A DNA stretch of 64,000 nt from contig OX597827.1 of NCBI GenBank assembly GCA_951406725.2, forward strand, positions 27,900,001-27,964,000, in the 5' to 3' direction. A program made the position numbers and the translations under genes. Under the pieces are notes generated by a model. It saw only the letters and a list, made by a program, of their open reading frames with translations, ran no database searches and was not told the origin of the DNA. The DNA is from Octopus vulgaris. Its lineage: Eukaryota. Below are positions 25,068 to 56,361 of this stretch, piece after piece (the first letter of the stretch is position 1; each line of letters begins with the position of its first letter).

Positions 25068-25151
25068 TGGCTGATGAGTGCTCAGCATTTTAAAAGTGTT
25101 GTAATACTTACAACATTTGATAAAATGATGTAGTGCGAAACGATAGTACCA
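25068..25151 (+). ncRNA. Hammerhead ribozyme type I, long helix II (family H2)
   Basis: UGG-CUGAUGA-[GUGCU CAGCAUUUUA ...uguuguaa-uac-uuacaaca... UAAAAUGAUG U AGUGC]-GAAA-CGAUAG-UA-CCA; lies in cassette 24775-25185, whose left end matches 56066-56165. Confidence 0.8.
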
Positions 25152-25204
25152 AATTACCGAAATTATTCTTGTAACTTATTTTGAATATATATATATATAT
25201 ATAT

Positions 25205-25630
25205 ATATATGAAACTGAGAATGTGTGTCTGTGTGTCTGTGTGAATCAATAAAACTTGAGAAGTATACAACCAATTTCATTTAAATTTTACACATGCCTT
25301 ACTTAGGGTCCATGTAGTGTCATGGGCAAAACAATTTCTAACTTCTTGCCTAGGGCGAGCCCACAGCAATATCATATCTTCTCCACTATTTCAGTATTAC
25401 GTGTTTAAAGTGAAACAAAAACATCTCTCTATTCTAATGTCAGATACTTTCACTTTAATACTGAAACTATTGAAGTCAAAATATTATATAAGAGGGATGA
25501 ACCATTAACAGTGGACATCCATTTTGCGAGGAGAAGATCCGCTATGGTCTTGTATGGTACACCACTGGTTTCAATTCATATTAATCAAATTAATATTCAA
25601 TTTCTCACCCTAATTATTTTAAATTTAATT
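25205..25630 (+). mobile_element. Possible Helitron 5' portion
   Basis: tatatatgaaa...tgtgtgtctgtgtgtctg...caaccaatttcatttaaatttt resembles common non-autonomous Helitron 5' ends; no 3' CTAG hairpin seen. Confidence 0.35.
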
Positions 25631-25769
25631 TTAATTGGAACGAAGTTTCTTACCACACACCTATACCTGCACCTATGTATGTGTGTGTGTGTGTGTGTGT
25701 GTGTATAGCTGTATATGTATACATTTATTTCTATACATATAGATGTATATGTATACATGTATATGTGCA

Positions 25770-25808
<39 letters not shown>

Positions 25809-25878
25809 CAAATGATGTACATGTAATATGTACACATATATATTCACATATATGCATACATACATATATACACCCATG

Positions 25879-25910
<32 letters not shown>

Positions 25911-25915
25911 TACAT

Positions 25916-26260
25916 AGGTGCAGGTGTGGCTGTGTTGTAACAAACTTCGTTCCAAAACACCCATGTGTTTTGGAACGAAGTTTGTTACCTGTGTTTAGTC
26001 CCACTGCGTGGTGACTTGGCATTTGTCTTCTGCTATAGCCTCGGACCAACCAAAGCCTTGTCAGTGGATTTTGTAGACAGAAAATGAAAGAAATCAATCG
26101 TATATATATGTACGTATATATGTAAGTCTTTGTGTGTTTCTCCCTCATCACTGCCTCACAACTAGTGTTCTTTTATTCACATCCCCATAACTTACTTGTT
26201 TCACAAGCAGAACCTGATAGAATAAGTACCAGGCTTATCAAAATAAAAAAAAACACTGGG
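25916..26260 (+). mobile_element. SINE family B copy with internal 24-bp perfect hairpin
   Basis: ggtgcaggtgtggctgtg head, ggaccaaccaaagccttg, gatagaataagtaccaggctt. Confidence 0.7.
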
Positions 26261-26367
26261 CAGTATCTCATATTTTTGTTTGCCCACACAATTTATCTTT
26301 GTGTGTGTGTGTGTGTGTGTATGTGTGTGTGTATGTGTGTATGTGTGTGTGTATACATACAGACATA

Positions 26368-27862
26368 CGAGCACGTTCCGTAGACCGTGCATCTGCTCTC
26401 TCCCACCGAAACCGCCCTGCAGTCTCCCGCCTCCCTTTTCTCCTCACTTCTCTCCAACGCACCATTCTTCGAGCTTTTCGGCATCTCCAGTCCGACTCGT
26501 CCACTTCACACCTCTTCCGTAACCGACCCCCCCCTCCTTCAAACGAGCCCATAACCTACGAGACCTCTTGGTCCACAGCTTCTTCCCCGACCCTATGTCC
26601 CAACCTGGCTCGTTCCCTGCTCCCGCCCACGTTGCCGCATTTGCCCTTACCTCTCCAACACCACCCTCCTCACCGGCACCCATCATCGACCCTATCGCAT
26701 CATCGACTCCTTCACCTGCACCTCCAGCAATATCATCTATTGCATCTCCTGCTCTCTCTGCCATTCCCTGTACATCGGACAAACGGAACGCCGCTTGGTT
26801 GACCGGTTCGCGGAACACCTTCGAGACATCCGCCTCGCCAATAACACTCCAGTCGCACGCCATTTCCGCTCCACCGGTCGCTCCTTGCAACACCTGTCTG
26901 TGTTCGGATTGTCTTTGCACAGAGGGCATCCGGATTCCCGCTTGCGCCGTGAACAGGGATTAATATTCTCTCTTCGCTCTTTTACGCCATTTGGGCTCAA
27001 CTCTCCCCCACTTTTCATCTAACCTCCCCCCGACTCCTACTTCAGTCCTTCATCTCTTCACCCCTACTCTCTTTCCCTCCTCTTCCCTTCTTTCCCTTCT
27101 TCCCCCTTCTTCCCTCTTCTCCCTCTTCTTCTCTCTTCTTCCCTCTTCCCCTTTTCTCTTTCTCTCTGCTCCCTCACTCACCTTCTCTCCCCTCTCCCTC
27201 TCAACATCTCCCCCTCCCCTCCTCCTCATCTCTCGCTTCCTCCTCTCCCTCCTCCTCCTCTCCCTCCTCCTCCTCTCCCTCCTTCTCCTCCTATCCCTCC
27301 TCCTCCTCTCCCCCTCATCTCCTCTCTCCCCTCATCATCACTCTCCCCTCATCTCTCTCCCCTCATCCCCCCTTTTTTCCCCACAACACCCACTCTACCG
27401 CAACCCCCAGCCGAACCCACACACCACTTGGGCTTTCCCCACTCTCGCCTCCCCCACCTCCCCACAACATCACACCACACTGCACTACACCATACAACAT
27501 TACACATCACAACACACCACCCACACACCCATCCCCACATCTCCACACCCACACATACATACACACACACGTCCAGACCACCAGCCCTCTTTCGCACGCA
27601 CATATATACTCTCTTATACACACACTGTTATCTCCCCTGACCACTGTCTGAAGTCAGGACGCCATGATAGATCGTTAGCTCCTATACGCATTTTTTCTCT
27701 CCTTGTTTCTCCCTTTTTTTCTGTGTATCTTTCTGTCGAAGAGCGTAGGCTCGAAACGTAAAAGACTCGTTCTATTTCTATTCATGAGCGCCATACTAAT
27801 ACATTTGTTTGTTTGTACTCCATCTGCCTTCGTCTTTTGTTTATTTTTGTAAATTTTCCCGT
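26368..27862 (+). mobile_element. 5'-truncated Neptune-like PLE: linker and GIY-YIG fragment, CT/CA-rich 3' region, pLTR with HHR-like motif
   Basis: Homologous to 32520-33180 (CSRPRCRIC, FTCTSSNIIYCISC...YIGQ, DRFAEHLRDIRLANNTPVARHF...EQGLIFSLRSFTPFGLN); ctgtcgaagagcgtaggctcGAAAcgtaa at 27733-27761. Confidence 0.9.
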
Positions 27863-28123
27863 TATATATATATATAACGGGAAAATTTACAAAATAAACA
27901 AAAATGAATGTATATATCTAAGTGCATGTGTGTGACTTTGTTTCTGTGTTTCACCCTCATCACTGCTTCCCAACTGCTGTTCGTTTATTTACATCCCCAT
28001 AACTTACTGGTTTCACAAAAAGAAACTAATAGAATAAGTACCAGGCTTATCAACATAAAAAAAGCACTACGTTGTGTCTCATATTTTTGTTTGCCCACTC
28101 AGTTGTATCTATCAATTTATCTT

Positions 28124-28154
<31 letters not shown>

Positions 28155-28733
28155 CACACACACGCACCCCCCCCGCATATGTATATATATATATATATAA
28201 CATAAGGGACTAAAGCCATCTGAATATGGCTAGGGACAGGGCAGGGTGGTGCGGGTGTTACTGTTGCATTTAGCCCCAGGCGAACATCAACGTCGCCAGA
28301 TAGGCTTGACACCATCACGGCGTCCTTTATCCTGCAAAGGGAGATAATTCCCCGATGAAGCGGAAACCTCACACGGACCTAGGTTTCAAGGTATATTGCC
28401 TATCATCAACGTGTGGTAGGCCCCCGCTTCCTCGACGAACAACTCACTCTGCAGGATATTTATATATAGATTTTCAAGCAAAATACATTTGCTGATTTCG
28501 AAAATCTGTTCGACAGCAATAATAATTCTCTAAATGAGATATAGACAGTAACTGCTCCATAACATAAGGGACTAAAGCCATCTGAATATGGCTAGGGACA
28601 GGGCAGGGTGGTGGGGGTGTTACTGTTGCATATATATATATATATAATATACACACACACGCACCCACCCACCCGCATATGTATATATATATATATATAT
28701 ATGTAACACATGTCCTTGTGGAAGTTGTTGTGC

Positions 28734-28811
28734 GCGGCTGAAGAAGGCCACAGACATACATTATGCATTGTTATAAATCTGTCTAATAAAGGCCCGAAAC
28801 ATATGTACCGC
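28734..28811 (+). ncRNA. Hammerhead ribozyme type I, intact core (family H8)
   Basis: GCGG-CUGAAGA-a-GGCC...GGCC-c-GAAA-CAUAUG-UA-CCGC: perfect 4-bp helix I, palindromic helix III, inside a ~150-bp island between (TA)n tracts. Confidence 0.85.
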
Positions 28812-28959
28812 TGAATCCTTGGCATCATGTTTTTATTTTGATCAATTATATATATATATATATATATATATACAAGTATGTATATGTGTACATTCATATT
28901 TATTATATCAAAGACAATGTCCTTATGTGTTTGTGTATTACTTACATATTCGAAAGCTG

Positions 28960-29510
28960 CTGCACTGATCATAAGGAAATTTGGAACATAAAATCGAAGC
29001 CTAGGGAGAAGGGTAATGCTGTGTGTTTCATACAATTTCATGGACCAAAATTACTGAATGGATCCTTATATTTGAAACTTAGATTCAATGCATAAGGGCA
29101 GGTATAATACAATATGTTTGGTTTGAATTTCAGATGGCTTAAAGGGGGGAGAACCTCTCATGAAATTTTCGATGTTGATGAAATTTCAACCATGGGTAAT
29201 TGACACACATCAAGAAGTATTCTCAAAGTTTCCACTTCACATGAGAACTCTTAGACACCCTAATGGGGGCCTTAACTCCCAAATTTTAGTCATTTCTTTT
29301 ATGAAAGAAAACTAAGTCAAAGGTACGGAATGGATCTTTACGAAATATGGAAATTATATTCTATGCATAAGGGCCACAACCCCCATGACAATTCATATAC
29401 TTTTGCTGTTGATGAAATTTTAACCTTAGATATTAGATACAAATGAAGTAATATTTATAAAATTTCATCTTCTTACAAGTTAGAAAAACACCCACAATTT
29501 TGTCATTTTA
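28960..29510. repeat. Degraded repeat with internal duplications (possibly Helitron/Helentron internal)
   Basis: tgttgatgaaatttcaacc (29173) / tgttgatgaaattttaacc (29407) and repeated atggatc...atgcataaggg blocks. Confidence 0.3.
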
Positions 29511-30322
29511 TCTAAGCAAAGACGAATAGTTGTACTCTTGGAAGCTGTGCAGTCATCCGAGCATAGAAGATGAGCATTATTTGTAATCCAATGGTACAAC
29601 AATGTAAGAGTTTGCTTTGACATACACTTAGATTGTGATTTCTACAATGTGCTGCATAAATTGTCAAGTAAATGAGAGGCATCTTTGCCTCCACTGATTC
29701 AGTTGCAAAGTGTTGAGTAAAGTTATTTGATTGCAGATCTCCTTTCAGTCATTTTATTATCACTGGGTCACACATAGTCCCCACATGGTAACATTGATTT
29801 CAAGGCTTTCCCAGATGAGTGACTGGTTATTCAAAGACATTTATAGATTGTATATTTATTCTGTCCAGTTACGTATCATTATAGTGGTCATTTGCAAACT
29901 CCAATTTCCATTTCTCCTTAGCCCTCACAGTTGTTAATGTTTATTTCAGTTGGGTCACGCCCTTCCAATTGCTATAGATTCGTAATGCATCTTAAGGCTG
30001 TGCCTGTCACCTGCATGGTGAGGAATACTACATTGGGAGTGCTAACGACTAGGGTACTGTAGCTGACTGCATATTGTGATCATTCGTCTTTTGGTTTCCT
30101 GTAGCTTTGCTCTCTTTTACAAACCCAGTGAGCATATATTTCCTATTTCAAAGAAATTCAAATAATAGATATAAGATCCAAGTTAAAAAGATTCTCAACT
30201 TTTTTCCTGAACTTATCTCCCTGTACTTTTCCTTTTCCTTCTTTACCTTTCTTCTTCCACCTCCATTCTTCCACTTGTGTCACCACCACTTACACCTACA
30301 TACACATTCACCACTTCCCAAC

Positions 30323-33187
30323 ATGCCTGACTTGCACTCGTTCGTCCAACACCTTCAATCCTTTCTTAGCCGCTTTCTCGCTTTTTTCCCCCCCCAATGC
30401 TTACAACCCGCAAAAAACTCTCTCACTTACCTTTTAAAAAAACTCGCCACTCCAGCCATCTCTCCTTCCTCAGCCGTTGCCTCCGCTATCACGTCACACC
30501 CCGTGGCTTCTTCTTGAAGTTCCACGCCACCCCCTATTCCTCCCCCTTCATCGAACCCACCCTCGCCCGCACTTCCCGCCTCCTAATCCGTGCTACCATC
30601 CGTTCCACCCGCTCTTTCCTCCACTCCTTTGACCACCTACTTCCCCAAGCTTACCTTCTTCTCTCCTCCCTCTGCCCTCCACTCTTCATCCAACCTATTC
30701 TCCGCTTCATTCTTAATCTCAACCACCAGCTTCATAATTTCCTCACACACACAAAAAACAAAAAACTCCACCACCTCCTCAACCCTTCACCTCCTTCCGC
30801 TCCCCTCTCCTCCACATCCTCCATTTCCTCCCCTCCAGCTTCCCCGACTCTCTCCACCCCTCCCCCCCCCTCCACGGACCAACACACACCCCACCCTGAC
30901 CTTTCTACGCCTACCACCACTTCATCTAACCACCCCACTATCCTCCCCACACCTCTGCACCCCCTCTTCCCGACCCCACTCATCCCACCACCCCGCTTCC
31001 TCGCACTGTTGTCACTATACCCCCCAATCTCCCCCTCTCCGCAGCCGAGCGCTCTCTCCTCAGTAAGGGACTCCGCTTCACGCCTCTCACGCCCCACTGT
31101 GACGAATTCAAGACTCGGACGGACGTCAACCAGTTCCTGCGCCGCCTCAAACTTTGCGCCTTCTACCACGCATCTCCGCAGCGTCACGACAACCAGGATT
31201 GCTTTTTGGAGCTGGGGCGCCGCCCATCCAACTGGACGCCGCCCCCGAGCCAATTCAGTAGCCTAGAATCGTTTGTGAACGACTGCAACGGGTTGGTAAA
31301 CCGGTTTAATTTTTAAAAAAGACCTCTCCGAGACAACTTCACACAGGCTGAATTGGTTGCCCTTCGCCACCTCCGTCGCCGTAATGACATTGTCATCAAA
31401 CCGGCGGACAAAGGCGGAGCAGTGGTGGTGTGACGCGCGGATCTCTACAGGGAGGAAGCGCTCAGCCAGCTTCAAAATCCCCTCTTCTATCGCCTCCTCC
31501 CCTCTGATCCCACCTCTTCCTACCAACAGCGAGTGTCCTCCACTATCCGCGAACTCATCTCCTCTTCTGCTCTCCCCCCACCGCCACCAACCTCATCGTC
31601 CGCACACCCCGCACCTCCACCATCTATTTCCTTCCCAAAATTCATAAGCCCAATACCCCTGGCCGACCCATCGTTTCCGCCTGTAATTGCCCTACTGAAC
31701 ACATTTCCCTATACCTCGACCGCATCCTGTCCCCTTTAGTCAAAGCCCTCTCTTCCCACATACATGATACCAACCACGCCCTCCGTCTCTTCAATTCCTT
31801 TTCCTTCCCTTCCAGCCCCTCACACCTCCTCTTCACCATTGACATCAAATCAGTGTATACGGTAATTCCCCACAACGACGGTCTCCTAGCTCTCCAACAG
31901 CGTCGCCCCGACCCCACCCCTAGCACCCCCACCATCCTCCGCCTGGCAGAGCTCGTCCTAACCTTCAACTGTTTCATGTTCGCTGGGGAAACGTACCAAC
32001 AGTTGTCCGGGGTCGCGATGGGAACGAGAATGGGTCCCAATTTCGCCAATCTCTTTGTTGGCTACATTGAGGCCCAAGTATTCTCCCAATTCTCCGGGCC
32101 GACCCCAGAACTATACGGTCGTTACATAGACGACTGTATAGGCGCCACCTCCCTTTCCCGCGAACAACTCTGCCACTTCATCTCTTTCCTCTCTAACTTC
32201 CACCCCTCTCTACAATTCACTTCCACCATATCCAATACTTCCGTTAACTTCCTTGATATCTCACTCAGCATCGACCACCCCTCCCACTCTCTCACCACTT
32301 CCGCCTTCTTCAAACCCACGGATTCCCACCTCTATCTCAACTTCTCCTCCTCCCATCCCTTCCACACTAAACGGGCTATCCCCTACTCCCAGTTCCTCCG
32401 CCTCCGACTCCTGTGCAGCCGCGACCAGGATTTCAAGACCCAGTCTCAATACCTGGCCCGCCTGTTCAGGCTTCGAGGATACCCACCTACCCTGGTCTTG
32501 AACGCCCTCGCCCGCGCTCGCCGCATTGACCGCACCACCGCCCTTTCTCCTTCCAATCACCCACCCACCAACCGCACCCCCTTTCCCCTCCTTTTCCACC
32601 CCTCTACTCTACCCCTACGTCGGAAGATACTTCGTGCCTTCCGTCGTCTCCAGCTCGATTCCACGACCCACCCCATTTTCCCCAACCCACCCCTGTCCTC
32701 CTTCAAACGAGCCCGGAATCTACGCGACCTCCTGGTCCGTAGCACCCTCCCTTCTTCCCTCTCGGCCCCACTCGGATACTTCCCATGCTCCAGATCCCGC
32801 TGCAACACCTGCCCCCTCATCACCAACACCACTGCTGTAACCGGTTCCAACCGGCGAACTGTACGTATCAGGTATTCCTTTACGTGCACCTCGTCTGGAC
32901 TCATATACTGCATTAAATGCAACCGCTTCAGGATGCTGTATATAGGACAGACGGGACGCCGATTGTCAGACCGATTCGCCGAGCATCTGCGGGATGTTCG
33001 TCTACTTTCCAATTCTCCCGTCGCACGGCACTTCCGCTCGGCCAGCCTTTCCCCCGATGACATCTCGGTGTTTCGTCTTGCCCCACACAACGGCTCCCCC
33101 CAATCTAGGCTTCACTTGGAGCAACGGTTCATATTCCTTCTACGGACTCTAACCCCACACGGACTCAAAACAGCCCCCTCCTCTTAG
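30323..33187 (+). pseudogene. Penelope-like element polyprotein (RT + Cys-rich linker + GIY-YIG endonuclease), Neptune-like, disrupted
   Basis: Across frames: HLSFLSRCL...TPRGF, LLSKGLRFTP, IVIKPADKGGAVVV, LPKIHKPNTPGRPIVS, IDIKSVYTVIP, GVAMGTRMGP, RYIDD, FLD, KPTDSHLYLNFSSSHP, CSRSRCNTC, GLIYCIKC...YIGQTGRRLSDRFAEH, LEQRFIFLLRTLTPHGL. Stops at 31314 (TAA) and 31431 (TGA) and several frameshifts; 31853-33187 is open. Confidence 0.93.
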
Positions 33188-33304
33188 TGACTGCGCTCCA
33201 CTTCTCTCCACGCATCTTTTATTTTTTATTTTTTATTTTTTGTTTATTAATTATTATTTATTTTTATTTTTTTAATATTTATAATTGTCCTTGCAGTAAC
33301 AAAA

Positions 33305-38281: not shown

Positions 38282-38282
38282 C

Positions 38283-39159: not shown

Positions 39160-39738
39160 TAATACAAATAAGAAAATGGAGAAACAAATTTGGTTTGTTC
39201 ATCAACTTACGGATATTATGATATTGGATTATTTATTCATTTTACAAATAAGAACATCAAAAGCATACAAAAATATTATATAAATCAATAGATAAGATAA
39301 TAATACAAATACAGATTGTAAGAGTCACAGTATAAATTAATGAAATCCTAAAAACTACTTCTTACAGCTGTTTCAGTCTATGGTCAAAAGTAAGTTTAAT
39401 TTTCATTGCCTATAGATGTCAACATACTAAGGCATACTGTAGGCATTTTAAAAATTATAATACTTATATATTAAAAAAACCATAGGCCTCGTCAGAGCTT
39501 ATAATGGACTTTAGAAATATTAATATTAATATACTAACGTAATTTTTTAGGATTTCATTAATTTATAGTATGACTTATAAAATCTGTATTTGTATGATTA
39601 ACTTATCTATTGATTATATAACATTTTTGTATGCTTTTGATGTTCTCATTTGTAAAATGAATAAATAATCCAACATTATAATATCCCTAAGTTGATGAAC
39701 AAACCAGATTTGTTTCTCCATTTTCTTATTTGTATTAT
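39160..39738. repeat. About 185-bp inverted repeat enclosing an HHR (cassette family H5)
   Basis: 39160-39355 is the reverse complement of 39545-39738 with scattered substitutions. Confidence 0.9.
39358..39498 (-). ncRNA. Hammerhead ribozyme with about 95-nt helix II loop
   Basis: Minus: cu-CUGACGA-GGCCUAUGG...CCAUAGACU-GAAA-CAGCUG-UA-ag; helix I is short. Confidence 0.7.
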
Positions 39739-41166: not shown

Positions 41167-41971
41167 CATAATCAAAAAGGGTAATAACTTAGGTTATTAT
41201 GACCAATGGCCTAGCACAAAAGACGAATTAGTCATTAGATAAAATATTATTCATATAGAAATATAATAAAAGCTCCCAAATAAGGAAGCTTAGTGCTAGA
41301 GACACAAAGAGGGATAAATTCATGGAGAGAGTGAAAATCAAAAACATTTGCCATTAACAATATATCCCGGACTGATCAGTTTCTACCTCTTTCTTGCAAA
41401 TATAGTCCGGGATATATCGTTAATGGTAAATGTTTTTGATTTTCACTCTCTCCATGAATTTATCCCTCTTCGTGTCTCTAGCACTAAGCTTCCTTTTTTG
41501 GGAGCCGTTTATTATATTTCTATATAAATGATATTTTTCTATATGAATAATATTTCGTCTAATGACTAATTCCTCTTTTGTGCTAGGCCACTGGTAATAA
41601 TAACCTATGTTATTACCCTTTTTGATTATGTTCACATATTACTTGATAAATTTGTTCGTAAAACTTTTTACCGGCATGTCCTATGTTGCCGGGTATATTT
41701 TGCGTCTGCGCAGAGGCTTGAAAAGTTAAGATATACAAATTGTTAGATCGACATGTGCTCTAACGCTCTGTGCATCTAGAATAAGGAAGGCGTCCCGCTG
41801 ACGAACCTTGCCTTGGCAAACATATTCTGTCTGTTTTGCTAGAAAGAGGTGGAAACTGATCAGTCTGGGATATATCGTTAATGGTAAATGTTTTTGATTT
41901 TGACTATCTCCATGAATTTATCCCTCTTTGTGTCTCTGTCGCTAAGCTTCCTTATTTGGGAGCCTTTTATT

Positions 41972-42253: not shown

Positions 42254-42317
42254 CACTACGATCGTTTCATGCCTGCTAACATCTTCAAATTTTTGAGTCG
42301 CTGTCATTCATCAGGTG
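42254..42317 (-). ncRNA. Hammerhead ribozyme type I, intact core (H6)
   Basis: Minus: CAC-CUGAUGA-AUG...CAU-GAAA-CGAUCG-UA-GUG, in AT-rich cassette 42060-42370 bounded by (TA)n. Confidence 0.8.
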
Positions 42318-43196: not shown

Positions 43197-43288
43197 TATC
43201 TCTGAAGAGCGGAAGTGTAGTCTATAAATGCTTATCGATATAGGATTCCATTATAGGGATAATACTTCAGCGAAACAATCGTAAGGTG
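43197..43288 (+). ncRNA. Hammerhead ribozyme type I, long helix II (H7)
   Basis: UAUCU-CUGAAGA-GC-g-GAAGUGU...AUACUUC-a-GC-GAAA-CAAUCG-UA-AGGUG. Confidence 0.8.
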
Positions 43289-43488: not shown

Positions 43489-44648
43489 CCTCCCTGAGTA
43501 GTTGCACATATTGCACCTCGACTCCTTGCCTCTGCAGCGAGTTCAGCACTGCGTTGGTTTCGACGCTATCGAAGGCCTTCTCATAGTCTACAAACGCAAC
43601 GCAAAGAGGCAGCTTGTACTCATTCGCTCGCTCAAGCAGTTGTGTTAGAGTAAATATATGGTTCATCGTGCTGTAGGGAGGCAAATTCCGGATGCACCAC
43701 CGACATAGCTCTGCTGTCATCACCCGTCCGAGTGTCGGTCGAGAAGGGAATGAAGCAAGGAGATACGATCTCTCCAAAACTTTCACCGCATGTCTTGGGC
43801 AGATTATCAGAGGCGTCGACTGGCAAGGCGGTGTCAACATCAATGGCGAGCTCCTCACCCACCTCCGTTTCGCTGACGACATCGTACTCATCGCTGAAAA
43901 CACGGATCAGCTTCAGACCATGCTGACGGAGCTCGACATCAAAAGCTCTGCAGTAAGTCTCAAGATGAGCCGCATGAAAACGAAGTTCATGCGGTCAGTC
44001 AACGTACCAAGTTGAATGGTGATAGGCAGTGATGAAATAAAGGAGGCAAAGGAGTATGTCTACCTGGGACAGGAAATGAATATGTGCCGAGATATCGAAA
44101 AGGAGATCTCACGGAAAGTAAGGGCTGGATGGAAGGCGTTTAATGGCATAAGGGATCTGCTCAAGGGAAGGTTGGACAGGACCACCCGCGCCAACCTCAT
44201 CAACAGTACAGTTCTACCTGCAATGTTATATGGTAGTGAAACATGGGCTACCACTAAGAGAGAAGAGCAGAGACTGGTAACGGCTCAAAGAGCCATGGAA
44301 AGGTCAATGCTTGGTATCTCGTTGAGAGAGCACATCAGTAGGGAAATCATCAGAAAGAAGTCCGGCGTGAGGATGTCATCGCAGAGTATACACGCAGCAA
44401 GTATAGATGGGCTGGACACATCGCCCGGCTCACCGATAATCGGTGGACCCACGCAGTTGTCGAGTGGTACCCGCGCGAGAGGAAACGACCACCCGGAAGG
44501 CCTTCACGACGGTGGAGTTACGATTACAGGAGGACGATTGGGATCACGTGGATGAGAAAGGCGCGATCCAGAGAGGAGTGGACAGCGTGCAGTGACCAGC
44601 GGTGTCAAATGGACGCCCGACGGACTGGTCGGTCAAGGTGATCAAGGT

Positions 44649-44650
<2 letters not shown>
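43484..44650 (+). mobile_element. RTE-clade LINE, 5'-truncated with 5' inversion (copy 1)
   Basis: Inverted 43484-43675 encodes YSTMNHIFTLTQLLE...FVDYEKAFDSVE...LLREAN; + strand encodes KGMKQGDTISPKL, LTHLRFADDIVLI, YVYLGQ, VLPAMLYGSETW; 3' end ggtcaaggtgatcaaggtga; (TA)n on both sides. Confidence 0.92.
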
Positions 44651-44718
<68 letters not shown>

Positions 44719-44722
<4 letters not shown>

Positions 44723-45150
44723 CTTGATCACCTTCACCGACCAGTCCGCCAGGCGTCCATTTGACACCGCTGGTCACTGCACGCTGTCCACTCCTCTCTG
44801 GATCGCGCCTTTCTCATCCACGTGATCCCAATCGTCCTCCTGAAATCGTAACTCCACCGTCGTGGAAGTCTTCCGGGTGGTCTTTTCCGTTCACGCAGGT
44901 ACCACTCGACAACTGCGTGGGTCCACCGATTATCGGTGAGCCGGGCGACGGTAGTGAAACATGGGCTACAACAAAGAGAGAAGAGCAAAGACTGGTAACG
45001 GCTCAAAGTGCCATGGAAAGGTCAATGCTTGGTATCTCGTCGAGAGAGCACATAAGTAGCGAGATCATCAGAAAGAAGTCCGGCGTGAGAGATGTCATCG
45101 CAGAGTATACACGCAGCAAGTATAGACGGGCTGGACACGTCGTGCGGCTT

Positions 45151-45156
<6 letters not shown>
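44719..45156 (-). mobile_element. RTE-clade LINE, short copy with 5' inversion (copy 2), tail-to-tail with copy 1
   Basis: 44719-44949 is the 3' end on minus (VARLTDNRWTHAVVEWYLRERKRPPGR); 44950-45156 is the preceding segment on + (GSETWATTKREEQRL...AGHVVRLTD). Confidence 0.9.
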
Positions 45157-45507: not shown

Positions 45508-45549
45508 AACTGCCTGACGAACGGGAACGTGAAACTCTGAGTAACAGTT
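45508..45549 (+). ncRNA. Minimal hammerhead ribozyme type I, intact core (H1)
   Basis: AACUG-c-CUGACGA-ACG-ggaa-CGU-GAAA-CUC-u-GAG-UA-a-CAGUU; GNRA-capped helix II. Confidence 0.85.
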
Positions 45550-46742: not shown

Positions 46743-46785
<43 letters not shown>

Positions 46786-46974
46786 TGTGTGTGTGTGGGG
46801 TTAATTAAACGAAGAAAACTTCTGATACTTAAGACGAATCGTAAATTTTGAAACTAAACAAGTTGGATCATATAAATCATATATAGCCTATTCAATCAGA
46901 CAATTTATTAACCGAACAATACACACACAGAAACACACACACACACACACACAAATATATGTGTGTTTGTGTGT

Positions 46975-47230: not shown

Positions 47231-47526
47231 AAAGCTGAACGGTCATATAATCATTCATTCATAAACTCCACACACAACATGGACACAATTTTTTTTCTTA
47301 AGAAAATACGTATTCAAATAAATTTTAATGTCATGATTAGCAAAAATAAAATCGGTTGACAAACACAATATAAGATGCATTAAAAATTATATTAAAACTC
47401 TGTAAAGTGCGTGCATTTTCCTTCTTTAGTTTCTTATCTACTCACCATGTGGGGTAATGGAAGTTCTTCCTTTTTTGTTACTATGTATATATTTATATAT
47501 GTGTATGTGTGTGTATGTATGTGTTT

Positions 47527-47560
<34 letters not shown>

Positions 47561-48382
47561 ATATATATATATATATATACATAAACACACACACTAATAT
47601 ATGTATACAGATATATATACATATATATATATATATGATAATCAGTTTCCTTATTTTCATTCATCGATATATCTTCGATATTCCCTTGTATAAATTGCAT
47701 TCTATGAGGAGGCTCAAAAATAAGTGTATGTCTATATATGTATGTATGCATGTATGTATGTATGTTTGTATACGTGTATGCATAGATAAAGCGATAGAAG
47801 AAAACAGCAACAAGGCAGAATCAGTTTACGACAAAACATTTCATTTCATCTCCAGAGAAGAAAATTATGACGTTTTGGAAAATTTAATTCTTCATAATAA
47901 TGGAGACAAACATGAAAAATAAATAAGTCAGTAAGTGAATAACGAAAGACAGAAAGAAAGAAAGAAAGAAAGATCAAGGTATAATATCTAGGTGCATCTT
48001 GTCTATATGTCAAGCATTGACTGGTGAGAAGAAAATTATCGTGTTTGATGTCCCCAATCTGGAGAGTGAATTCAAAGCTGTTCTTTGGCCTATACATATA
48101 GGTTGAAAAGGTTACAAGACGCAACGAAAACTTTAGAAAAAAAAAAAACGCAAAGAAGAAAGAAGTGGGAATTTTATTGGTGAGTGTGTTAAATAATAAT
48201 GCACCAAAAGAGAATGACTCTCCCCAGATAAAACAGAATATACTTTAACACACGAACTCACATATACATATATACATATACATACATACATGTACGTATG
48301 TATGTATGTTTGTATATATATGTATGTATATATATGTTTGTATATATATGTATGTATATATATGTATGCATATATATGTTTG

Positions 48383-48414
<32 letters not shown>

Positions 48415-48470
48415 TGTATGTATGTATGTATGTATGTATGTATGTATGTATGTATGTATGTATGTGTATG

Positions 48471-48523
<53 letters not shown>

Positions 48524-48654
48524 ATATATTAGAAGGTTTGAAGATGATGTACAGGTATTTTATATTAGAAGAATTGAGGTACTCAGAAATTCGGATGGTT
48601 TTAGATTTACGGATATTACATGTTTTTATACATCATATAATTTATATCATATAT

Positions 48655-48697
48655 CATATATTAGCGCTTTCTCCCATCCTAGTGGGGTTTTCAAATC
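48655..48697 (-). ncRNA. Decayed hammerhead-like motif
   Basis: Minus: au-UUGAAAA-CCC-cacuaggau-GGG-a-GAAA-GCGC-UA-au; core has two substitutions. Confidence 0.35.
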
Positions 48698-48703
48698 GAA
48701 CTA

Positions 48704-48793
<90 letters not shown>

Positions 48794-48841
48794 ATATATA
48801 TATATATATTTATACATATTTTCTTTTTCGTAACATATTTC

Positions 48842-48915
<74 letters not shown>

Positions 48916-48955
48916 TATATATATTTATACATATTTTCTTTTCGTAACATATTTC

Positions 48956-48988
<33 letters not shown>

Positions 48989-48989
<1 letters not shown>

Positions 48990-49355
48990 TTCTATTCCAT
49001 CCACCCCTTCTCCACTTCAGTCTGCAGTTACCATTCCCCCGGATCTTCCCCTCTCTGCGGCGGAACGCTCCATCATCAGTAGGGGTCTGCCTTTCATCCC
49101 CCTCACTCCATCCTGTAGGGAATTCCAGACGCGAGCTGATGTCCACAGCTCTGTGCGCCGCGTCTGGTTGGGTGCGTTTTTCCGCGACATACCACCCGCC
49201 GCCGACCATCCCAATGGACGCCTGCCCCCGGCCAGTTCCAAGCAGTGGATATTTTCGCGGGTGCCTGTCAGCGCGCGTTGGAGCGGTTCAACTTCTCTAG
49301 GAGCCACCGGGTGAGCTCTCGGCTCTTCGTTCTCTCCGACGGCGCGCTGACATTG
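48989..49355 (-). mobile_element. GC-rich fragment, possibly a LINE 3' end, abutting (TA)n
   Basis: Sharp GC rise; minus [17 protein letters not shown] resembles the WNxL motif at LINE ORF2 C-termini. Confidence 0.35.
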
Positions 49356-49524
49356 TCATTAAATCGGATAGAGTAGATGGAAACTGAATGAAGCCCGCCA
49401 AATATATGTGTGTGTCTGTGCGTGTGTGTGTGCGCGTCTGTGTTCGTACCCCCTACCATCGCTTGATGCTGGTGTGTAACCTAGCGATGCGGCAAAAGAT
49501 ACTGAGAGAATAAGAACTAGGGCA

Positions 49525-50255
49525 AACCCAACAGAATTAAATGTTTGTCTAATAATTCTAAGATTAAGAATTCTATTTACCAGTGTAAAATTTCTTCCGG
49601 TACCGATGTCTTCTACTTAGGTGCGTCCACTTCCCAGTTATCCAAGAGAATTTCAAACCATTATTCATCAATTAGGGATAGTAAAAAACGACATAGTACA
49701 GGGCTAAGTAAATTAGTTTGGCGTCTTAAAGACAATAATATAGATTTTAAGTTAGATTGGTTCATACTGTCTGTATCCTTTCCTTTTGATAAGGGCAGGA
49801 GATTTTGTAACATTTGCAACTCTGAACCCTTCCATATTCTCTTCTCTAAGGATCCCCTTGTAAACACACTTATAGAGAAATCGTACAAATGTAAACACTG
49901 GCAGAAACATACTTTTTACTCATATAAATGATTTCGATAGTCATTATAGTTTGAACAATTAGTTTACGTGCACTCCACTACAATAGAGAAACTCTTTCCT
50001 AAGCCTTTGAACATTCTTTTTATCAACGTACCCCTCCCTCTCTATTTGTTCCCTACTTATTATTCCTTTAACCCTTCTCTTCCTACTATCTAATTTTGAC
50101 GTCAATTCTACTAACGGTTTTTTTAAACACTTATTATCGTTTTGTTTACCATGTAGGCAGTCATCGCAATTATTATTTTGTCTTGTTGTTGAGAGAGGCT
50201 CCCTTTCTTTCCTGATGAGAAGATTGCATCTTGCACCGTTTATTCCTTTGGAATA
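49525..50255 (+). mobile_element. 5'-truncated PLE of a second clade (Naiad/Nematis-like): GIY-YIG C-terminus, 3' UTR, decayed HHR
   Basis: ORF 49545-49931: SIYQCKI...FYLGAST...KRISNHYSS...STGLSKLVWRLKD...W.IL...CNICNSE..HI...N...KCKH; CTGATGA-g-AAGAT-tgc-ATCTT-gcac at 50212-50236. Confidence 0.8.
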
Positions 50256-50284
50256 AAACGATGTTTATGCGGTAAAGGAAGACG

Positions 50285-50590
50285 CCGACTGCGACAATGG
50301 CGATGATAATAATGACGACGACAACGACGAAGACATGGATGACGATGACGACGATGAAGGGCATAATGAAGAGGCGACAGAGTGAAGGAGTCGGGGCGGG
50401 ATGGGGGGGAGGAGCATTCTGCTGATGACGACGACGATGATCATGGTGCGGCTTATGATGTTTATGACGGCGATAATATTTGTATCGTTAATGATGTTGA
50501 CGATGATCATAAATGTGACAGATGCTTTAATATGATGGCGATGATGATATTGATGAGGATGATGATGACGATGACGACGATGGCGACGGT
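50285..50590. repeat. Cryptic (GAT/GAC)n low-complexity tract
   Basis: Direct reading; interrupted by stops. Confidence 0.8.
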
Positions 50591-50633
50591 GCTACGTCTG
50601 TAATTCCATAGGTTATTCTTATTGTTGTTGTTA

Positions 50634-51078
50634 AAGCGGCGAGCTGACAGAAACGTTAGTACGCCCGGTGAAATGCTCAGTAGTATTTCGTCTGCCGTTA
50701 CGTTCTGAGTTCAAATTCCGCCAACGTCGACTTTGCCTTTCATCCTTTCGGGATCGATAAATTAAGTACCAATTATGCACTGGGGTCGATGTAATCGACT
50801 TAATCCCTTTGTCTGTCCTTGTTTGCCCCATCTCTATGTATGTCCCCTCTATTGCTCTTGTGAACAATAAAGAAATAAGAAACGTTAGCACGCCGGGCGA
50901 AATGCTTAGCGGCATTTTTATCGTCTTTGCATTGCGAGTACAAATTCTGGCGAGGTTGACTTTGCATTTCATCTTTCGGGGTCGAAAAAATAAGTACCAG
51001 TTACGCTCTGGGGTCGTCGATGTTATCAACCTAATCCCCCACTAAATTTCAAGCCTTGTGCCTAGAATAGAAAGGATT
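50634..51078 (+). mobile_element. SINE family A dimer (A1 followed by head-clipped A2)
   Basis: A1 ends aataaagaaata, followed directly by agaaacgttagcacgccgggcg...ccttgtgcctagaatagaaagg. Confidence 0.85.
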
Positions 51079-51224
51079 ATTATTATATTTGTTATTCTCA
51101 TAAATGTGATTGATATTCTGAAAATTGCGAAGATTTTATATTTTATAAAGAAATTGTTGTATATTGTTTTTGTCTTTTTTCTTTTGCTGTTGCTTAGCCC
51201 TAATTTAGCCACGATTCAGCTGCT

Positions 51225-51612
51225 TTATCTTCGACATGTTTCCGTCACTAGACTGCGGCCATGCAGGAGCACCGCCTTGAAGAATTTTAGAGGAACGAAT
51301 CGACCCCTGTACTTAGATTTTTTAAACTATCGATCTCTATTGCCAAACCGCTAGACTACGGGGACGTAAACGCACCAAAACGGGATACCAAGCAGTAGTG
51401 GGGAGCAAACTCAGAGACAATGATACACACCCGCACACTCGAACGCACGCAAACAATATATACAACAGGCTTCTCTCAGTTTCCGTCTATCAAATCCACT
51501 CACAAGGTTTTGGTCGGCCTTAGGTTATATAAGATATCCGACCAAGGTGTCACTGCAGTTCGACTGAACCCAAAACCATGTGGTTAGAAAGCGTTGTTCC
51601 AGCCGTGACCAT
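51225..51612 (-). mobile_element. SINE family B, near full length, degraded
   Basis: Reverse homology to 16987-17428 from tail to head. Confidence 0.8.
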
Positions 51613-51709
51613 ACCGTCTTTTGAGAAGCTGTCTTGGATTACATTATTGTATCTCTTCGTTTGAAGACAACGTACGATTTTGAAAACATCTGAGATCGCC
51701 ATCGTCTAT

Positions 51710-52125
51710 CTTGTTGTAGTGGTAGTTGTTTTGCTAGTGGTATTTGTTGTTGTTAATACAGTTACAATTCTCGTTTCTAACGCTGCTGCTGCAGCTATTA
51801 TTTACATAATTTCTATTTCTGGAGTTTTGTTTTATTTTTGCTGGTGTCCTCCTCTTGAAGCAGCTGCTATGTTTTTGTTGTTGCTGTTGCTGTCGTTGCC
51901 TTTCTTGCTGCTGTTTTCCATGCAAGTGTTGCACTCTTGTTATCGTTGATTTTGTTACTGTTGTTGTAATTTGTTGTTGCTGTTGTTGATGTTGTTGTTT
52001 ATGCTGCTGTCGTTGTTGTCGTCGTTGGTGCTGCTAGTGTTATGATGCTATTCTTGACAGTATTGTTGCTGCTGCTGAAGTTGTTGTTGTTGTTGTTGCC
52101 ACTGCTACAGCTGTTGTTGTTGTCA
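51710..52125. repeat. Cryptic (GTT/GCT)n low-complexity tract
   Basis: Direct reading. Confidence 0.8.
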
Positions 52126-52412
52126 AATAAGCGAAAATTGTCAACTCCATTTTCTATTTCGAAATGAAGAAGCCGAAAGGTATAAAGCAGTTGCCACGGA
52201 ATAAGTAAGTGGATTGTGAATGGGAGACGATGAGGAAGACAAAGAGAGGTGTGTGTGTGTGTCTACGTGAGGGAAAGAGAGTGAGCGAGAGAAAGACAGA
52301 AGAAAGAGAAGGGGAGGCGAAAAAGGGGGAGACAGGGTTTGTGAGATAGAGGGGAGAAGATAGATTATGACAGCAAATATTTATAAAGGAGATTGTGTAT
52401 GTGTGTGTAAGA

Positions 52413-52453
<41 letters not shown>

Positions 52454-52577
52454 ACAAGGAAGAGGGAAGGGAGAGAAAATAGATTTCTCTGGAATTGAGA
52501 AGTAAGCGGAAAGCAAATTCACATAAACATGGGCGCGTGGCTCCGCACAAGATTCCACATATAACGATATATGTATG

Positions 52578-52648
<71 letters not shown>

Positions 52649-52736
52649 ATGCGTGTATATACATACATATATACGTATGTATGTAGATGTAAGTATATAT
52701 ATATGTATACATATGTATATACATGTTTACATATAA

Positions 52737-52775
<39 letters not shown>

Positions 52776-52792
52776 TACATCTATATATTTTT

Positions 52793-52866
<74 letters not shown>

Positions 52867-53163
52867 GGAGAGAGAGAGGGGGGAGAAGGAGAAAGAAAGA
52901 CAGGAGAGTATGAAGAAGTTGTTGCGAGAGAGCGCAGGATCGAGTGTGTGATACATGTGTGGACATATTGCGTAAATGCTTGTGCTGTTCTGCGTGAGCG
53001 CGCGCGCGTGTGTTTGTGTGTGTGCGTGTGTGAAAGGTTGCCGTGTGTCTGTTTCTGAGTCTGTGTGTTTGTTCCTGCACGCGTGCGTCTGTGTGCGTGA
53101 GAAAGAGCAAGAGACAGATAGAAATTCAGAAACGGAGATAGAGACAGAGAGGGAGAAAGATAT

Positions 53164-53235
<72 letters not shown>

Positions 53236-54515
53236 GGATAGAAATAACGGAGGAAAGAAAGAGACAAATAAAGGTAAGGAATGTGTGTGTATGTATGCAG
53301 CAAGCTGGTTGTGTGCGGATGTAAATACGTATGTAAAGAATTATATGTCGCGTTAGTGTGTGTGTTGGTTTGTGAAAGTATTAGCAGCAGAGGCGAAATG
53401 AATTATATAAGAATGAATACATATGTGTTTGTTCAAACGTTTATGAGACTATGTGCGAATGTGTGCGGCGAAGTCAATTATTGGTACGAAACGGTGCAGC
53501 TGCGTTCTAGCGGAAGATTAATTGCTGTTCACCACTAAGACGCGAAATAGGAGAACCACCGTCCTTTATCAAACAGCACAGCGCAAAGCTGCTAGATGTG
53601 ACGAACGACAAACCTTTTCTGATCGAGGGCCTTTTACTGCATACCCCAAAGGGTCTTCTCTAAAGAATAACGATTAGTCTCTAACCGGTTTAACCTATGT
53701 ATAATAAACCACAGATTAGGAATTTTTAAAGTAGATGGCATTTTTGTTGGAGCAAGTAATGCTGCCTGTAATATCAAGGAACAGAGCCATGAGTTAAAAC
53801 AAGTGCCGTCCTTTATAATGTAAAAAGCGGTGCAATGCTTGTGGATGTTTTGCTGCAGGTAGAGCAAGTATTTCTTGAAAAATAGCAACAAGTCTATGAT
53901 CGATGTAAGCTATGTACAATAAACTCCAGTTTTATACAGCTGATGGCATTTTCGGCATTTTTGTAGGTGCAGGCCATGTGGCTCTTAATATCGAAAGAAA
54001 AACTAGAAACCTGAATGGTGGTGATATTTCAGATGAAGAGAAACGTATTTTAGCGAGAGTAGAAGCAGGACGAGAACCGGATTAGGATGTGGGGGAAGGA
54101 TAAGTAACTATGAAGACAAAAACTAAAGCATTCAAGTAGTATTTGTGTTTGAAAGAAAGGAAAATATGTTTGTGAAAGTTATGGGAAGTGACTGGACCAG
54201 ATTGAAACAGATAAAAGCTTTCTCTGTGTGGTCCGCTGGGGAAGACGTGAAATGGGATTGAAAGTAAAAAGGAGAAGAATCGGGGTGATACTGAGCTGGG
54301 TACGGAGCAAAAACTAAATATGTAGCTAGCATCGAGGATGAGACAGTAAGAAATATCTATGAGCGGTCGAAGTTAAGTACATTGCTAGAAGATATAGGCT
54401 GTTAGGTATGCCTTGACATTGAAGCCGGAGCCTTGGGTAACTGCGAGCAGATAAGTAGATAAGCTTGTCTCTTTTGCTCGCTATCTATACACACGCACTC
54501 ACACACACGCACACA

Positions 54516-54546
<31 letters not shown>

Positions 54547-54831
54547 GCGTACATGCACACAAATACACGTATGTATTTCACCGTCACTTAGGTTTTTCGA
54601 TATAATGTATTCGGATCACCTCGAAACGGACAATATCTACTGTTCTCAGTGATTCTGAGGCGAGTTGTCTGTCCTAAACTGGGACATAGAGGTATTCTCT
54701 AAGACTCAGCACCATCTATGGAGCTTTCCCTGGATATTTTCTTGCAGCAAATCTGGCCAATAAACAAAATACATACGCTATGTATGTACGACAGATAACG
54801 TTTACATTTTTAGAGATATTTTGATTCGCAA

Positions 54832-54868
<37 letters not shown>

Positions 54869-54954
54869 TATATTGCCACAGGAGTGACGGTGTGGAAAGA
54901 AGCTTGCTTCCCAACCATATGTTTCAGGGTTCAGTCCCAAATATATATATATAT

Positions 54955-55290
54955 AGTTAATCCAAGCATGAAAATACAAAGAGAAAACACAACAACGCGA
55001 GGACGCGGAATAAGTATAGTGTTATTGGACGCTCAGGAAAGGAAAGAAAGAAGGAGGATTTAACGGTTCGACCGGAGCTCTTCGTCAGAAACATAGAAAA
55101 AGGAAGGGAAGGCGGAGGAAAAGAAATCGCCAATGATACACACGTGGTCACATATTGAATGACCGGAAGGGAATGGGTGAAGATAAAAAAAATCTTTCAA
55201 AGACAGGAGAGTGCAAGAGAAGGAGGTATATGTGTGTATGTGTGGGTATATGCGTGCGCGCAGATCTGTGTGTGTGTAATGATAGCATGT

Positions 55291-55344
<54 letters not shown>

Positions 55345-55572
55345 TTGGGCTTAGTATCGTTTAAGTTCATAGGAAGAATTTATAGTAGGAGTGGCTCCTC
55401 TGTTGTGCGTCTACCTACACATGTGCGTAGGGGAATGGTCAGTGGAAGGTACTGGTAGTTTGAAGTATGTGTGTGTGCGTGTATGTATATGTAGTGTGTG
55501 CGTGTGTATGTGTATATGTGTGTGTTCGTGTGCATATGAGTGTATGCGTAAGGGCTGTGTGTGTGTGTGGGA
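54955..55572 (-). mobile_element. Neptune-like PLE 3' end: CA-rich tract plus pLTR with minimal HHR (55059-55092)
   Basis: Minus: uuu-CUGACGA-a-GAGC-ucc-GGUC-GAAC-cg-uu-aaa; homologous to 36440-36598; follows a SINE B head (54875-54940). Confidence 0.75.
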
Positions 55573-55740
55573 AGAATATATATATATAAACAACTTTAAA
55601 TAAGGGCAAACGAAAACATTTCTAATGCCAAATATGCCGAAAATTGGACATATTGTCCATTTACCATATAATTTTTTTCTCAGTACGCACGCTACTCGAA
55701 AAAAGGTCGACAGAAATTTCTAAAAAATTCCATTATTACC

Positions 55741-55796
55741 ATATCAGACCGATTTCAGGGTTAGTTCAAAAAGAACCCTCCCTTCGTCAGTGATAC
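55741..55796 (-). ncRNA. Hammerhead ribozyme type I, intact core (H3)
   Basis: Minus: GUAUCA-CUGACGA-AGGG-agg-GUUC-uuuuu-GAAC-uaa-CCCU-GAAA-UCGG-UC-UGAUAU; 6-bp helix I, GUC site; cassette 55595-55845. Confidence 0.85.
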
Positions 55797-55988
55797 ATGT
55801 GGCAAAGAAGTAAATGAGATACTTACTCATACCCATGGAAGAAGCAAACACTAAGTCATGAGCACAACTAAGTACCCCAAATAAATCCCAAATAGAAATA
55901 CTGCAGCCCATTCAAGGCACGTGCGATTTGAACTGAGGCACTCACAGAGTGGGAGAGTCCGGAAGTGAACACTATTAAATTTATATAT

Positions 55989-56058
<70 letters not shown>

Positions 56059-56065
56059 TAATATA

Positions 56066-56361
56066 AGTTCAGCAAAATTTAGATTCAGATGAATATGGTA
56101 CTTAAGTCAAAGGCACCAGAATTTTGTATGGTATTATCCATATAAATCAAATGGGGTGATTATAATAAAAATAAGCAACAAGTATATCTGACGTAGTGTA
56201 GTACAATTTTTTCATGCTACTTCATTTTATTAAACACTGTAAGTATTACATAAGTGGCTGAAGATTGCTCGACATTTTAAAGCTGATGTAATACTTAATA
56301 TAATGAAGTAGCATGAAACAATTGTACTACTCTACCTAGGATATACTTTCTACTTATTTTG

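What the first reader, a model, noticed from the sequence alone, without database searches (positions are those of the whole stretch)
25068..56330. Hammerheads with long helix II and family-specific palindromic helix III
Seen: helix III is a (near-)palindrome that differs by family: CAUAUG, CGAUCG, CAAUUG, CAGCUG, CUGAUCAG, CUUCGAAG, CUCwGAG, UCGG, GCGC, CG. Helix II spans about 30-115 nt in H2-H8 (nested hairpin at 25078-25136; about 95-nt loop at 39383-39479). Known: minimal PLE HHRs with palindromic helix III are proposed to cleave as dimers and usually have short helix II. Inference: the palindrome could act as a self-recognition code restricting dimer cleavage to one family, and the long helix II could be an RT-binding or tertiary-contact module.
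Basis: partly seen in the sequence, partly recalled or inferred. Interest (0 to 1): 0.72.

Follow-up and report, generated by a model that had tools for sequence, protein, structure and literature searches.

The report
Long-armed hammerheads without family barcode
These are copies of a self-cutting RNA motif already known from the ends of Penelope-like jumping genes; many carry an unusually long arm predicted to fold as a hairpin and likely cut only as pairs, but the palindrome that would join a pair is shared by unrelated families, so on its own it cannot be a family identity code.

Summary
The motifs are real. The stated range holds 12 complete type I hammerhead cores; those searched genome-wide belong to high-copy families. 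Three families sit beside Hydra-clade Penelope-like ORFs; the minimal CG motif follows a Neptune-type remnant.
Helix III is self-complementary in 40 of 43 families, which dimer cleavage requires and which is already published. It is not family-specific. CGAUCG is the consensus of four families, three of them in this window. Thirty of 43 families have a foreign helix III match. Cross-compatible pairs exceed chance (30 against 10.6 +/- 3.7), the opposite of a selected code. What separates families is mostly helix I.
The long helix II is real: over 24 nt in 31 of 43 families, up to 114 nt, beyond the published descriptor and the published Hydra motifs. It is predicted to fold as an irregular rod, with compensatory changes in one lineage. 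It shows no shared motif, fixed length or flank pairing. The best reading is a tolerated, self-folding extension; RT binding is untested. Cleavage is untested. This scan already noted the same long-armed motifs on other DNA. Verdict: a new variant of a known kind.

The parts
25071..25148 (+). Type I hammerhead, 59-nt helix II, helix III CGAUAG (family CGAUCG); 3' end of a Hydra-type PLE family, shared segment about 24721-25207
   Evidence: ORF follows the motif in L036 and an endonuclease remnant precedes it in L032
28738..28807 (+). Type I hammerhead, 51-nt helix II, helix III CAUAUG; very young family (40 listed copies 100% identical over 116 nt)
   Evidence: L361 shows endonuclease with CxCX5C, a 2.1-kb 3' region, the motif and an inverted 367-nt copy
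39363..39495 (-). Type I hammerhead, 114-nt helix II (109 in consensus), helix III CAGCUG, helix I only 2 bp; flanked by a 203-nt inverted repeat; no ORF link found
41798..41865 (+). Type I hammerhead, 47-nt helix II, helix III CUGAUCAG; inverted partial copy at 41260-41400
42257..42314 (-). Type I hammerhead, 39-nt helix II, helix III CGAUCG
43202..43283 (+). Type I hammerhead, 63-nt helix II, helix III CAAUCG (family CGAUCG); Hydra-type PLE family
   Evidence: L362 shows motif-ORF-motif with a LINE inserted
56258..56326 (+). Type I hammerhead, 50-nt helix II (59 in family), helix III CAAUUG; sister family of 25071
55742..55790 (-). Type I hammerhead, 27-nt helix II, 9-nt helix III (family 9-10 nt); related copy at 24392-24440(+)
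45514..45543 (+). Short-armed hammerhead (10 nt), helix III CUCUGAG; related copies at 4736-4765(-) and 59748-59777(+); same palindrome type and helix I as published Hydra-2_aMil
48662..48694 (-). Short-armed hammerhead with U3-A8 core variant, helix III GCGC
27733..27760 (+). Minimal hammerhead, 13-nt helix II, helix III CG, variant core; lies about 720 nt after a Neptune-type endonuclease remnant (link inferred from position)
28376..28409 (-). Short-armed hammerhead (15 nt), helix III CCUAGG; a homolog has CCAUGG
16132..16165 (-).
49566..50260 (+). GIY-YIG endonuclease remnant followed by a truncated long-armed hammerhead at 50212, of the lineage whose arm shows compensatory changes
26368..27010 (+). 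Broken Neptune-type PLE endonuclease end
31508..33187 (+). 559-codon open frame with RT and GIY-YIG domains, Neptune-type PLE

Best explanation
The motifs are hammerhead cores at the 3' ends (pseudo-LTRs) of many Penelope-like retrotransposon families, likely mostly of the Hydra clade, that are predicted to cut only when two copies pair through the palindromic helix III, and the long helix II is likely a tolerated extension selected only to fold back on itself. Shown: the cores, their copy families, the ORF links of three families, self-complementary helix III, sharing of palindromes between families, arm lengths of 10-114 nt. Predicted: rod folding of the arms and the double-hammerhead fold. 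Inferred: a homodimer forces helix III to be a palindrome, so palindromy needs no code; palindromes drift through G-U intermediates. In a mixed dimer, helix I is also built from both partners, so helix I plus helix III make about 98% of family pairs non-productive as a by-product of divergence. Helix I is short (2-7 bp) with no evident loop for a tertiary contact, so loop II is probably free to accept insertions that do not disturb the core. Most genomic copies are solo or inverted remnants and would stay uncut.
For: Helix III: 31 perfect, 9 G-U-compatible, 3 mismatched of 43 families, with only the outer pair demanded by the descriptor. 10 of 11 changed pairs between sister families keep pairing: 4 double changes, 6 G-U. 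The double hammerhead beats two folded monomers by 3-11 kcal/mol in 9 of 11 families and equals the dimer minimum in 6 of 11. Sharing: CGAUCG in 4 families; CAAUUG, CAGCUG, CAUAUG, CUCAGAG and CG in 3 each. 30 of 43 families have a foreign helix III match; 21 of 43 have one that also gives helix I; 30 of 1806 ordered pairs are compatible against 10.6 +/- 3.7 under permutation. Arms: inner z below -1 in 18 of 26 long families and below -2 in 11; in-register pairs at positions 5-10 are 96 of 156 against 64.6 +/- 6.2. Length differs by up to 9 nt between sister families; only AU-rich words are shared; flank pairing is at chance (P 0.16 and 0.20). Hydra motifs RWK/RWR, DKT and CxCX5C occur in linked ORFs (definition).
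Against: No cleavage was measured. In one lineage, 7 of 12 proximal arm pairs show changes on both sides, 6 of them beyond base pair 4. 19 of 26 long arms fall at 42-63 nt. Both would also fit a functional module. Among the three window families sharing CGAUCG, helix I is incompatible in all 6 ordered pairs, which fits discrimination. The permutation test ignores kinship, so shared ancestry could hide weak displacement. For the CG motif the double hammerhead is not favoured, and for the 114-nt family it only ties. 8- and 10-nt palindromes could also fold as monomers. 16 of 43 families rest on one copy. Four long-armed window families (39495, 41798, 42314, 56258) have no clear ORF link of their own.
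Confidence: 0.65

Rival explanations
1. The long arm is a functional module: a docking site for the element's own RT-endonuclease or a platform for a tertiary contact, recognised by shape.
For: Compensatory changes beyond base pair 4 in one lineage. End-anchored comparison keeps 11 of 15 doubly changed extension pairs, 7.2 expected, P about 0.04. The first interruption lies 3-7 nt from the core in 27 of 30 arms. An anole Poseidon hammerhead cleaved only with its protein in vitro (PMC11167929, passages).
Against: Without the best lineage the result is 7 of 10, P 0.13. With sequence-based alignments, 29 of 100 pairs break against 30.8 expected, and 1 is compensatory against 3.2. No shared motif or flank pairing. 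Published Hydra elements carry arms of about 24 nt or less, and the active element here has 31 nt.
Confidence: 0.2
2. Helix III, with helix I as a second part, is a barcode selected to restrict dimer cleavage to one family.
For: Only 30 of 1806 ordered family pairs are compatible. The three window families with CGAUCG differ in helix I. Sister families 25071 and 56258 differ by a double change, CGAUCG against CAAUUG.
Against: Compatible pairs exceed the permutation mean threefold; 21 of 43 families have a predicted foreign partner. The double change equals two CpG-type transitions, and the G-U intermediate CGAUUG exists as a family. Several Hydra magnipapillata families share CUUUAAG and near-identical helix I (PMC8557442 File S2).
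Confidence: 0.08
3. The motifs no longer cleave; the arms arose by fold-back duplication during reverse transcription and are by-products.
For: Fold-back and inverted copies are common. No reads ended at the cleavage site in the anole element, and cleavage was not needed for insertion in vitro (PMC11167929). In vitro rates of minimal PLE motifs are low (PMC4209133).
Against: Helix II base and helix III keep pairing through double changes between sister families (8-9 of 8-9 and 4 cases). Cores are intact in very young families.
Confidence: 0.07

Closest known systems
Hammerheads of Hydra-clade Penelope-like elements (Craig et al. 2021, PMC8557442; passages, section 11, part 2 of the supplement with File S2)
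   Same: Type I motif near the 3' end; 7-8-nt palindromic helix III such as CUCnGAG; frequent mismatch at the first helix II pair; (TA)n insertion; ORFs with RWK, DKT and CxCX5C; one family already described from an octopus.
   Different: Listed Hydra arms are about 24 nt or less; here 31 of 43 families exceed 24 nt, up to 114 nt, and 6-nt even palindromes dominate. File S2 does list long loop II variants (about 53 nt) in two spike-moss PLE-X elements, marked as deviating.
Minimal and variant hammerheads of metazoan PLE pseudo-LTRs (Cervera and de la Pena 2014, PMC4209133; parts 1-2 of 4 of the text, supplement passages and part 2)
   Same: Palindromic helix III, short helix I, dimer model, U3-A8 core variant, many divergent families per genome, mostly solo copies. 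That paper calls helix II larger than usual (7-8 bp), not short.
   Different: Its descriptor caps stem II at 7 bp and loop 2 at 10 nt. It finds 0 motifs in this window and 1 of 43 families (6 with helix III freed). G10.1-C11.1 holds in only 19 of 43 families.
Amphibian satellite / non-LTR retrozyme hammerheads (PMC7229834, passages; bioRxiv 10.64898/2026.07.22.740005, part 1 of 5 and passages)
   Same: One-base-pair helix III capped by a palindromic tetraloop cleaves poorly as monomer and well as dimer; derived from PLE ends.
   Different: Those are tandem arrays with canonical loop 1-loop 2 contacts; here tandem same-strand copies are rare (2 of about 213 loci) and arms are long.

Membership tests
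Type I hammerhead ribozyme | Core CUGANGA, GAAA, UH with three helices, open helix I | tested here: met
   variant cores at 27733, 28409, 48694
Type I hammerhead ribozyme | Self-cleavage after H17 | not testable with these tools
   only contigs were available
Type I hammerhead ribozyme | Rfam model match at gathering score | tested here: not met
   0 hits in the window
Type I hammerhead ribozyme | Loop I-loop II tertiary contact | tested here: inconclusive
   no excess Watson-Crick pairing of arm loops with flanks; non-canonical contacts not testable
Metazoan PLE pseudo-LTR hammerheads | Located in the terminal repeat of an RT plus GIY-YIG element | tested here: met
   families of 25071, 28738, 43202 and 50212; not shown for 39495, 41798, 42314, 56258
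Metazoan PLE pseudo-LTR hammerheads | Palindromic helix III | tested here: met
   40 of 43 families self-complementary
Metazoan PLE pseudo-LTR hammerheads | Helix II within the published descriptor (stem up to 7 bp, loop up to 10 nt) | tested here: not met
   31 of 43 families exceed 24 nt; descriptor fits 1 of 43, or 6 with free helix III
Metazoan PLE pseudo-LTR hammerheads | Extra base after A9 and G10.1-C11.1 pair | tested here: not met
   G-C first pair in 19 of 43, 5' extra base in 3 of 43
Metazoan PLE pseudo-LTR hammerheads | Cleavage as a dimer | not testable with these tools
   predicted favourable in 9 of 11 families
Hydra-clade PLE | RWK motif and DKG changed to DKT | tested here: met
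   RMRWK and DKT in L337; RIRWI and DKT in L036; RMRWR in L362 and L307
Hydra-clade PLE | CxCX5C linker and C-terminal GIY-YIG | tested here: met
   L337, L361, L032; L318 with a stop inside
Hydra-clade PLE | Insertion into (TA)n | tested here: met
   (TA)n 37-44 nt after the cleavage site in 5 of 10 window motifs checked, 141-195 nt in 4, none within 260 nt in 1
Hydra-clade PLE | Generally under 3 kb | tested here: inconclusive
   active element fits; the 28738 family has a 2.1-kb 3' region
Hydra-clade PLE | Placement in an RT tree | not tested
Non-LTR retrozyme | Tandem repeats with a hammerhead in each unit | tested here: not met
   window copies are solo or inverted; tandem same-strand in 2 of about 213 loci; one other family forms a 404-nt array

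The most novel reading that the evidence does not exclude
Hydra-clade elements use a two-part barcode (helix I plus the helix III palindrome) that keeps tens of thousands of dispersed ribozyme halves from cutting each other's and the host's transcripts, and the long helix II arm is a shape-read docking rod for the cognate RT-endonuclease.
Probability: 0.1. Interest if true: 0.7.

Novelty: new variant of a known kind. Interest (0 to 1): 0.36.

Why it matters
Standard searches miss these motifs: Rfam and the published descriptor both find none in this window. A blind 1.2-Mb sample held 25 long-armed motifs against 0-1 in shuffles, which extrapolates to roughly 50,000-60,000 in this genome, so ribozyme counts for such animals are probably too low. 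The catalogue also supplies matched and mismatched family pairs that make dimer specificity and the role of helix II directly testable. The role of PLE hammerheads is still open in the papers read. The palindrome and the dimer model themselves are published, and the family-code idea is not supported.

Tried and rejected
Rfam scan: no hit. Whole-window repeat finder: swamped by microsatellites; replaced by a masked self-comparison.
Pfam and PDB sequence searches gave nothing for the active Hydra-type protein, so clade calls rest on motifs.
Sequence-aligned covariation of arms: no signal. RNAalifold on one lineage kept only a 5-bp distal hairpin with no double change, because the aligner shifted the register by one. 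The first end-anchored count had register errors and was replaced; one pair of families may still be off by one there. Alignment A2 had wrong coordinates in three rows and was replaced by A3.
Pairing of arm loops with flanks and shared arm motifs: none.
Expression: no RNA holder listed; contigs laid showed no joints and cannot show ends.
Five singleton candidates were dropped as likely chance or decayed before counting 43 families. Within-family conservation was not used as evidence of selection, since copies decay neutrally and were chosen by likeness to the window copy.
Literature: Lunse et al. 2016 was not held; I know it only through review passages (PMC6765202), and it may describe longer arms or mixed dimers. 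The Terminon paper was not seen. Searches for heterodimer tests, extended helix II, trans cleavage and octopus or cephalopod hammerheads found no paper on a family code or long arms. bioRxiv supplements were not seen.
Full report
Setting. The window is G000:C14:27900001-27964000 in a 2.8-Gb, microsatellite-rich animal genome. An octopus is likely; this rests on the likeness, judged by eye, of its active element to the published Hydra-1_Obim protein and on earlier scan notes. Rfam finds nothing.

Observation. Motif scans found 12 complete type I hammerhead cores between 25068 and 56330 and four more outside. They are not chance. A descriptor with no rule for helix III gave 4 window sites against a mean of 0.0 in 30 shuffles. 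It gave 33 sites in 120 blind 10-kb genome samples against 4-11 in 5 shuffles; 7 of the 33 had a perfect even palindrome of 4 nt or more, against 0 in all shuffles. Seven window motifs were searched genome-wide with loci and each gave 509-1773 first-look candidates; the 28738 family has 40 listed identical copies.

What they are. The motif of the 25071 family is followed by an ORF start in L036 and preceded by an endonuclease in L032. The 43202 family gives motif-ORF-motif in L362. The 28738 family gives endonuclease, 3' region and motif with an inverted copy in L361. These ORFs carry RW(K/R/I), DKT and CxCX5C, the marks of the Hydra clade (PMC8557442 section 11). An intact, very young Hydra-type element with a roughly 708-residue ORF carries a hammerhead with a 31-nt arm and CUCAGAG. 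The window also holds an endonuclease remnant with a truncated long-armed motif at 49566-50260. The minimal CG motif at 27733 follows a Neptune-type remnant, and a 559-codon Neptune-type frame lies at 31508-33187. No clear ORF link was found for the 39495, 41798, 42314 and 56258 families. Most copies are solo 3' ends: 185 single, 26 opposite-strand and 2 tandem among about 213 loci, some of which overlap.

Helix III. From 390 candidates I built 43 families, after splitting one cluster and dropping five doubtful singletons; 16 rest on one copy. With only the outer pair demanded, helix III is a perfect palindrome in 31, G-U-compatible in 9 and mismatched in 3. Between sister families 10 of 11 changed pairs stay paired. 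The double-hammerhead fold beats two monomers by 3-11 kcal/mol in 9 of 11 families; it ties for the 114-nt family and loses for CG. This matches the published dimer model (PMC4209133; PMC7229834; PMC6765202). Two identical strands can only pair if they are palindromic, so no code is needed to explain it.

The code idea. CGAUCG is the consensus of four families, three in this window; five other palindromes are each used by three families. In a mixed dimer, one RNA supplies the 5' strand of helix I and the core, the other the cleavage site and the 3' strand, so both helices matter. Helix III alone matches in 116 of 1806 ordered pairs (30 of 43 families have a foreign match); with helix I, 30 pairs remain (21 of 43 families). 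Permuting helix I among families gives 10.6 +/- 3.7, so families are more cross-compatible than chance, as shared ancestry predicts and a selected code does not. The test does not correct for kinship. In favour of de facto specificity: 98% of pairs are non-productive, and the three CGAUCG families of the window are fully separated by helix I. The 25071/56258 change CGAUCG to CAAUUG equals two CpG-type transitions, and the intermediate CGAUUG is itself a family. Published Hydra magnipapillata families share palindromes and helix I (File S2).

Helix II. Arms run from 10 to 109 nt in consensus, over 24 nt in 31 of 43 families. The published descriptor allows 24 nt and finds none in the window and 1 of 43 families, 6 with helix III freed. 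Listed Hydra arms are about 24 nt or less, though two spike-moss PLE-X motifs have long loops. Long-armed, self-complementary motifs number 25 in 1.2 Mb against 0-1 in 8 shuffles. The extensions are predicted to pair: inner z is below -1 in 18 of 26 and below -2 in 11; in-register pairs are 96 of 156 against 64.6. Evidence for conserved pairing is mixed. Sequence-based alignment shows none. End-anchored comparison gives 11 of 15, P about 0.04, and 7 of 10, P 0.13, without the best lineage. In that lineage 7 of 12 pairs change on both sides in 9 copies, with the structure taken from one member. No shared motif beyond AU-rich words and no pairing with flanks was found. The simplest reading is an extension that must fold back on itself but has no fixed sequence or length. 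A shape-read protein site is not excluded; an anole PLE hammerhead needs its protein to cleave (PMC11167929).

Known and new. The PLE association, palindromic helix III and dimer cleavage are published. The long arm in Hydra-type elements was not found in the searches named under Tried and rejected, but Lunse et al. 2016 could not be read. This scan reported the same long-armed motifs on other DNA of this and other genomes; those notes gave me the Hydra lead, which I checked here. What this window adds is a test of the family-code idea, with a negative result, and the point that helix I rather than the palindrome does most of the separating. Verdict: a new variant of a known kind, interest 0.36.

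Noticed in passing
window 31508-33187 (+), upstream motifs from about 31060: 559-codon open frame of a Neptune-type PLE (RT plus GIY-YIG). A decayed CG-type hammerhead at about 36458 may be its 3' end, with a 2.5-kb (CACA/CATA)n array in between.
   Followed up: partly
window 25148, 28807, 43283, 45543, 56326: The cleavage site lies 37-44 nt before the (TA)n junction in five families, whatever the arm length (10-63 nt).
   Followed up: partly
L331-L360 (G000, 150 scored matches at 98-100% protein identity): A very young, apparently active Hydra-type PLE whose hammerhead has the core CCGAAGA (U4 to C) and a 31-nt arm.
   Followed up: partly
L363-L382; window 16132-16200, 59703-59806: Short-armed families often occur as small head-to-head fold-backs of two 5'-truncated hammerhead ends.
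   Followed up: partly
L010 21-1300; L119: A 404-nt tandem array with a long-armed hammerhead in each unit (retrozyme-like), and a three-copy cluster of another family.
   Followed up: no
window 44232-45154: 262-nt inverted repeat (95%) around 44421-44948 with a 205-nt direct repeat; an RT fragment lies at 43830-44000.
   Followed up: no
window 20950-21434: 2.6 tandem copies of a 184-nt unit that is also dispersed in the window, likely a SINE.
   Followed up: no
window 28409 (-) and L098: Homologous motifs differ by a double change in helix III (CCUAGG against CCAUGG).
   Followed up: no
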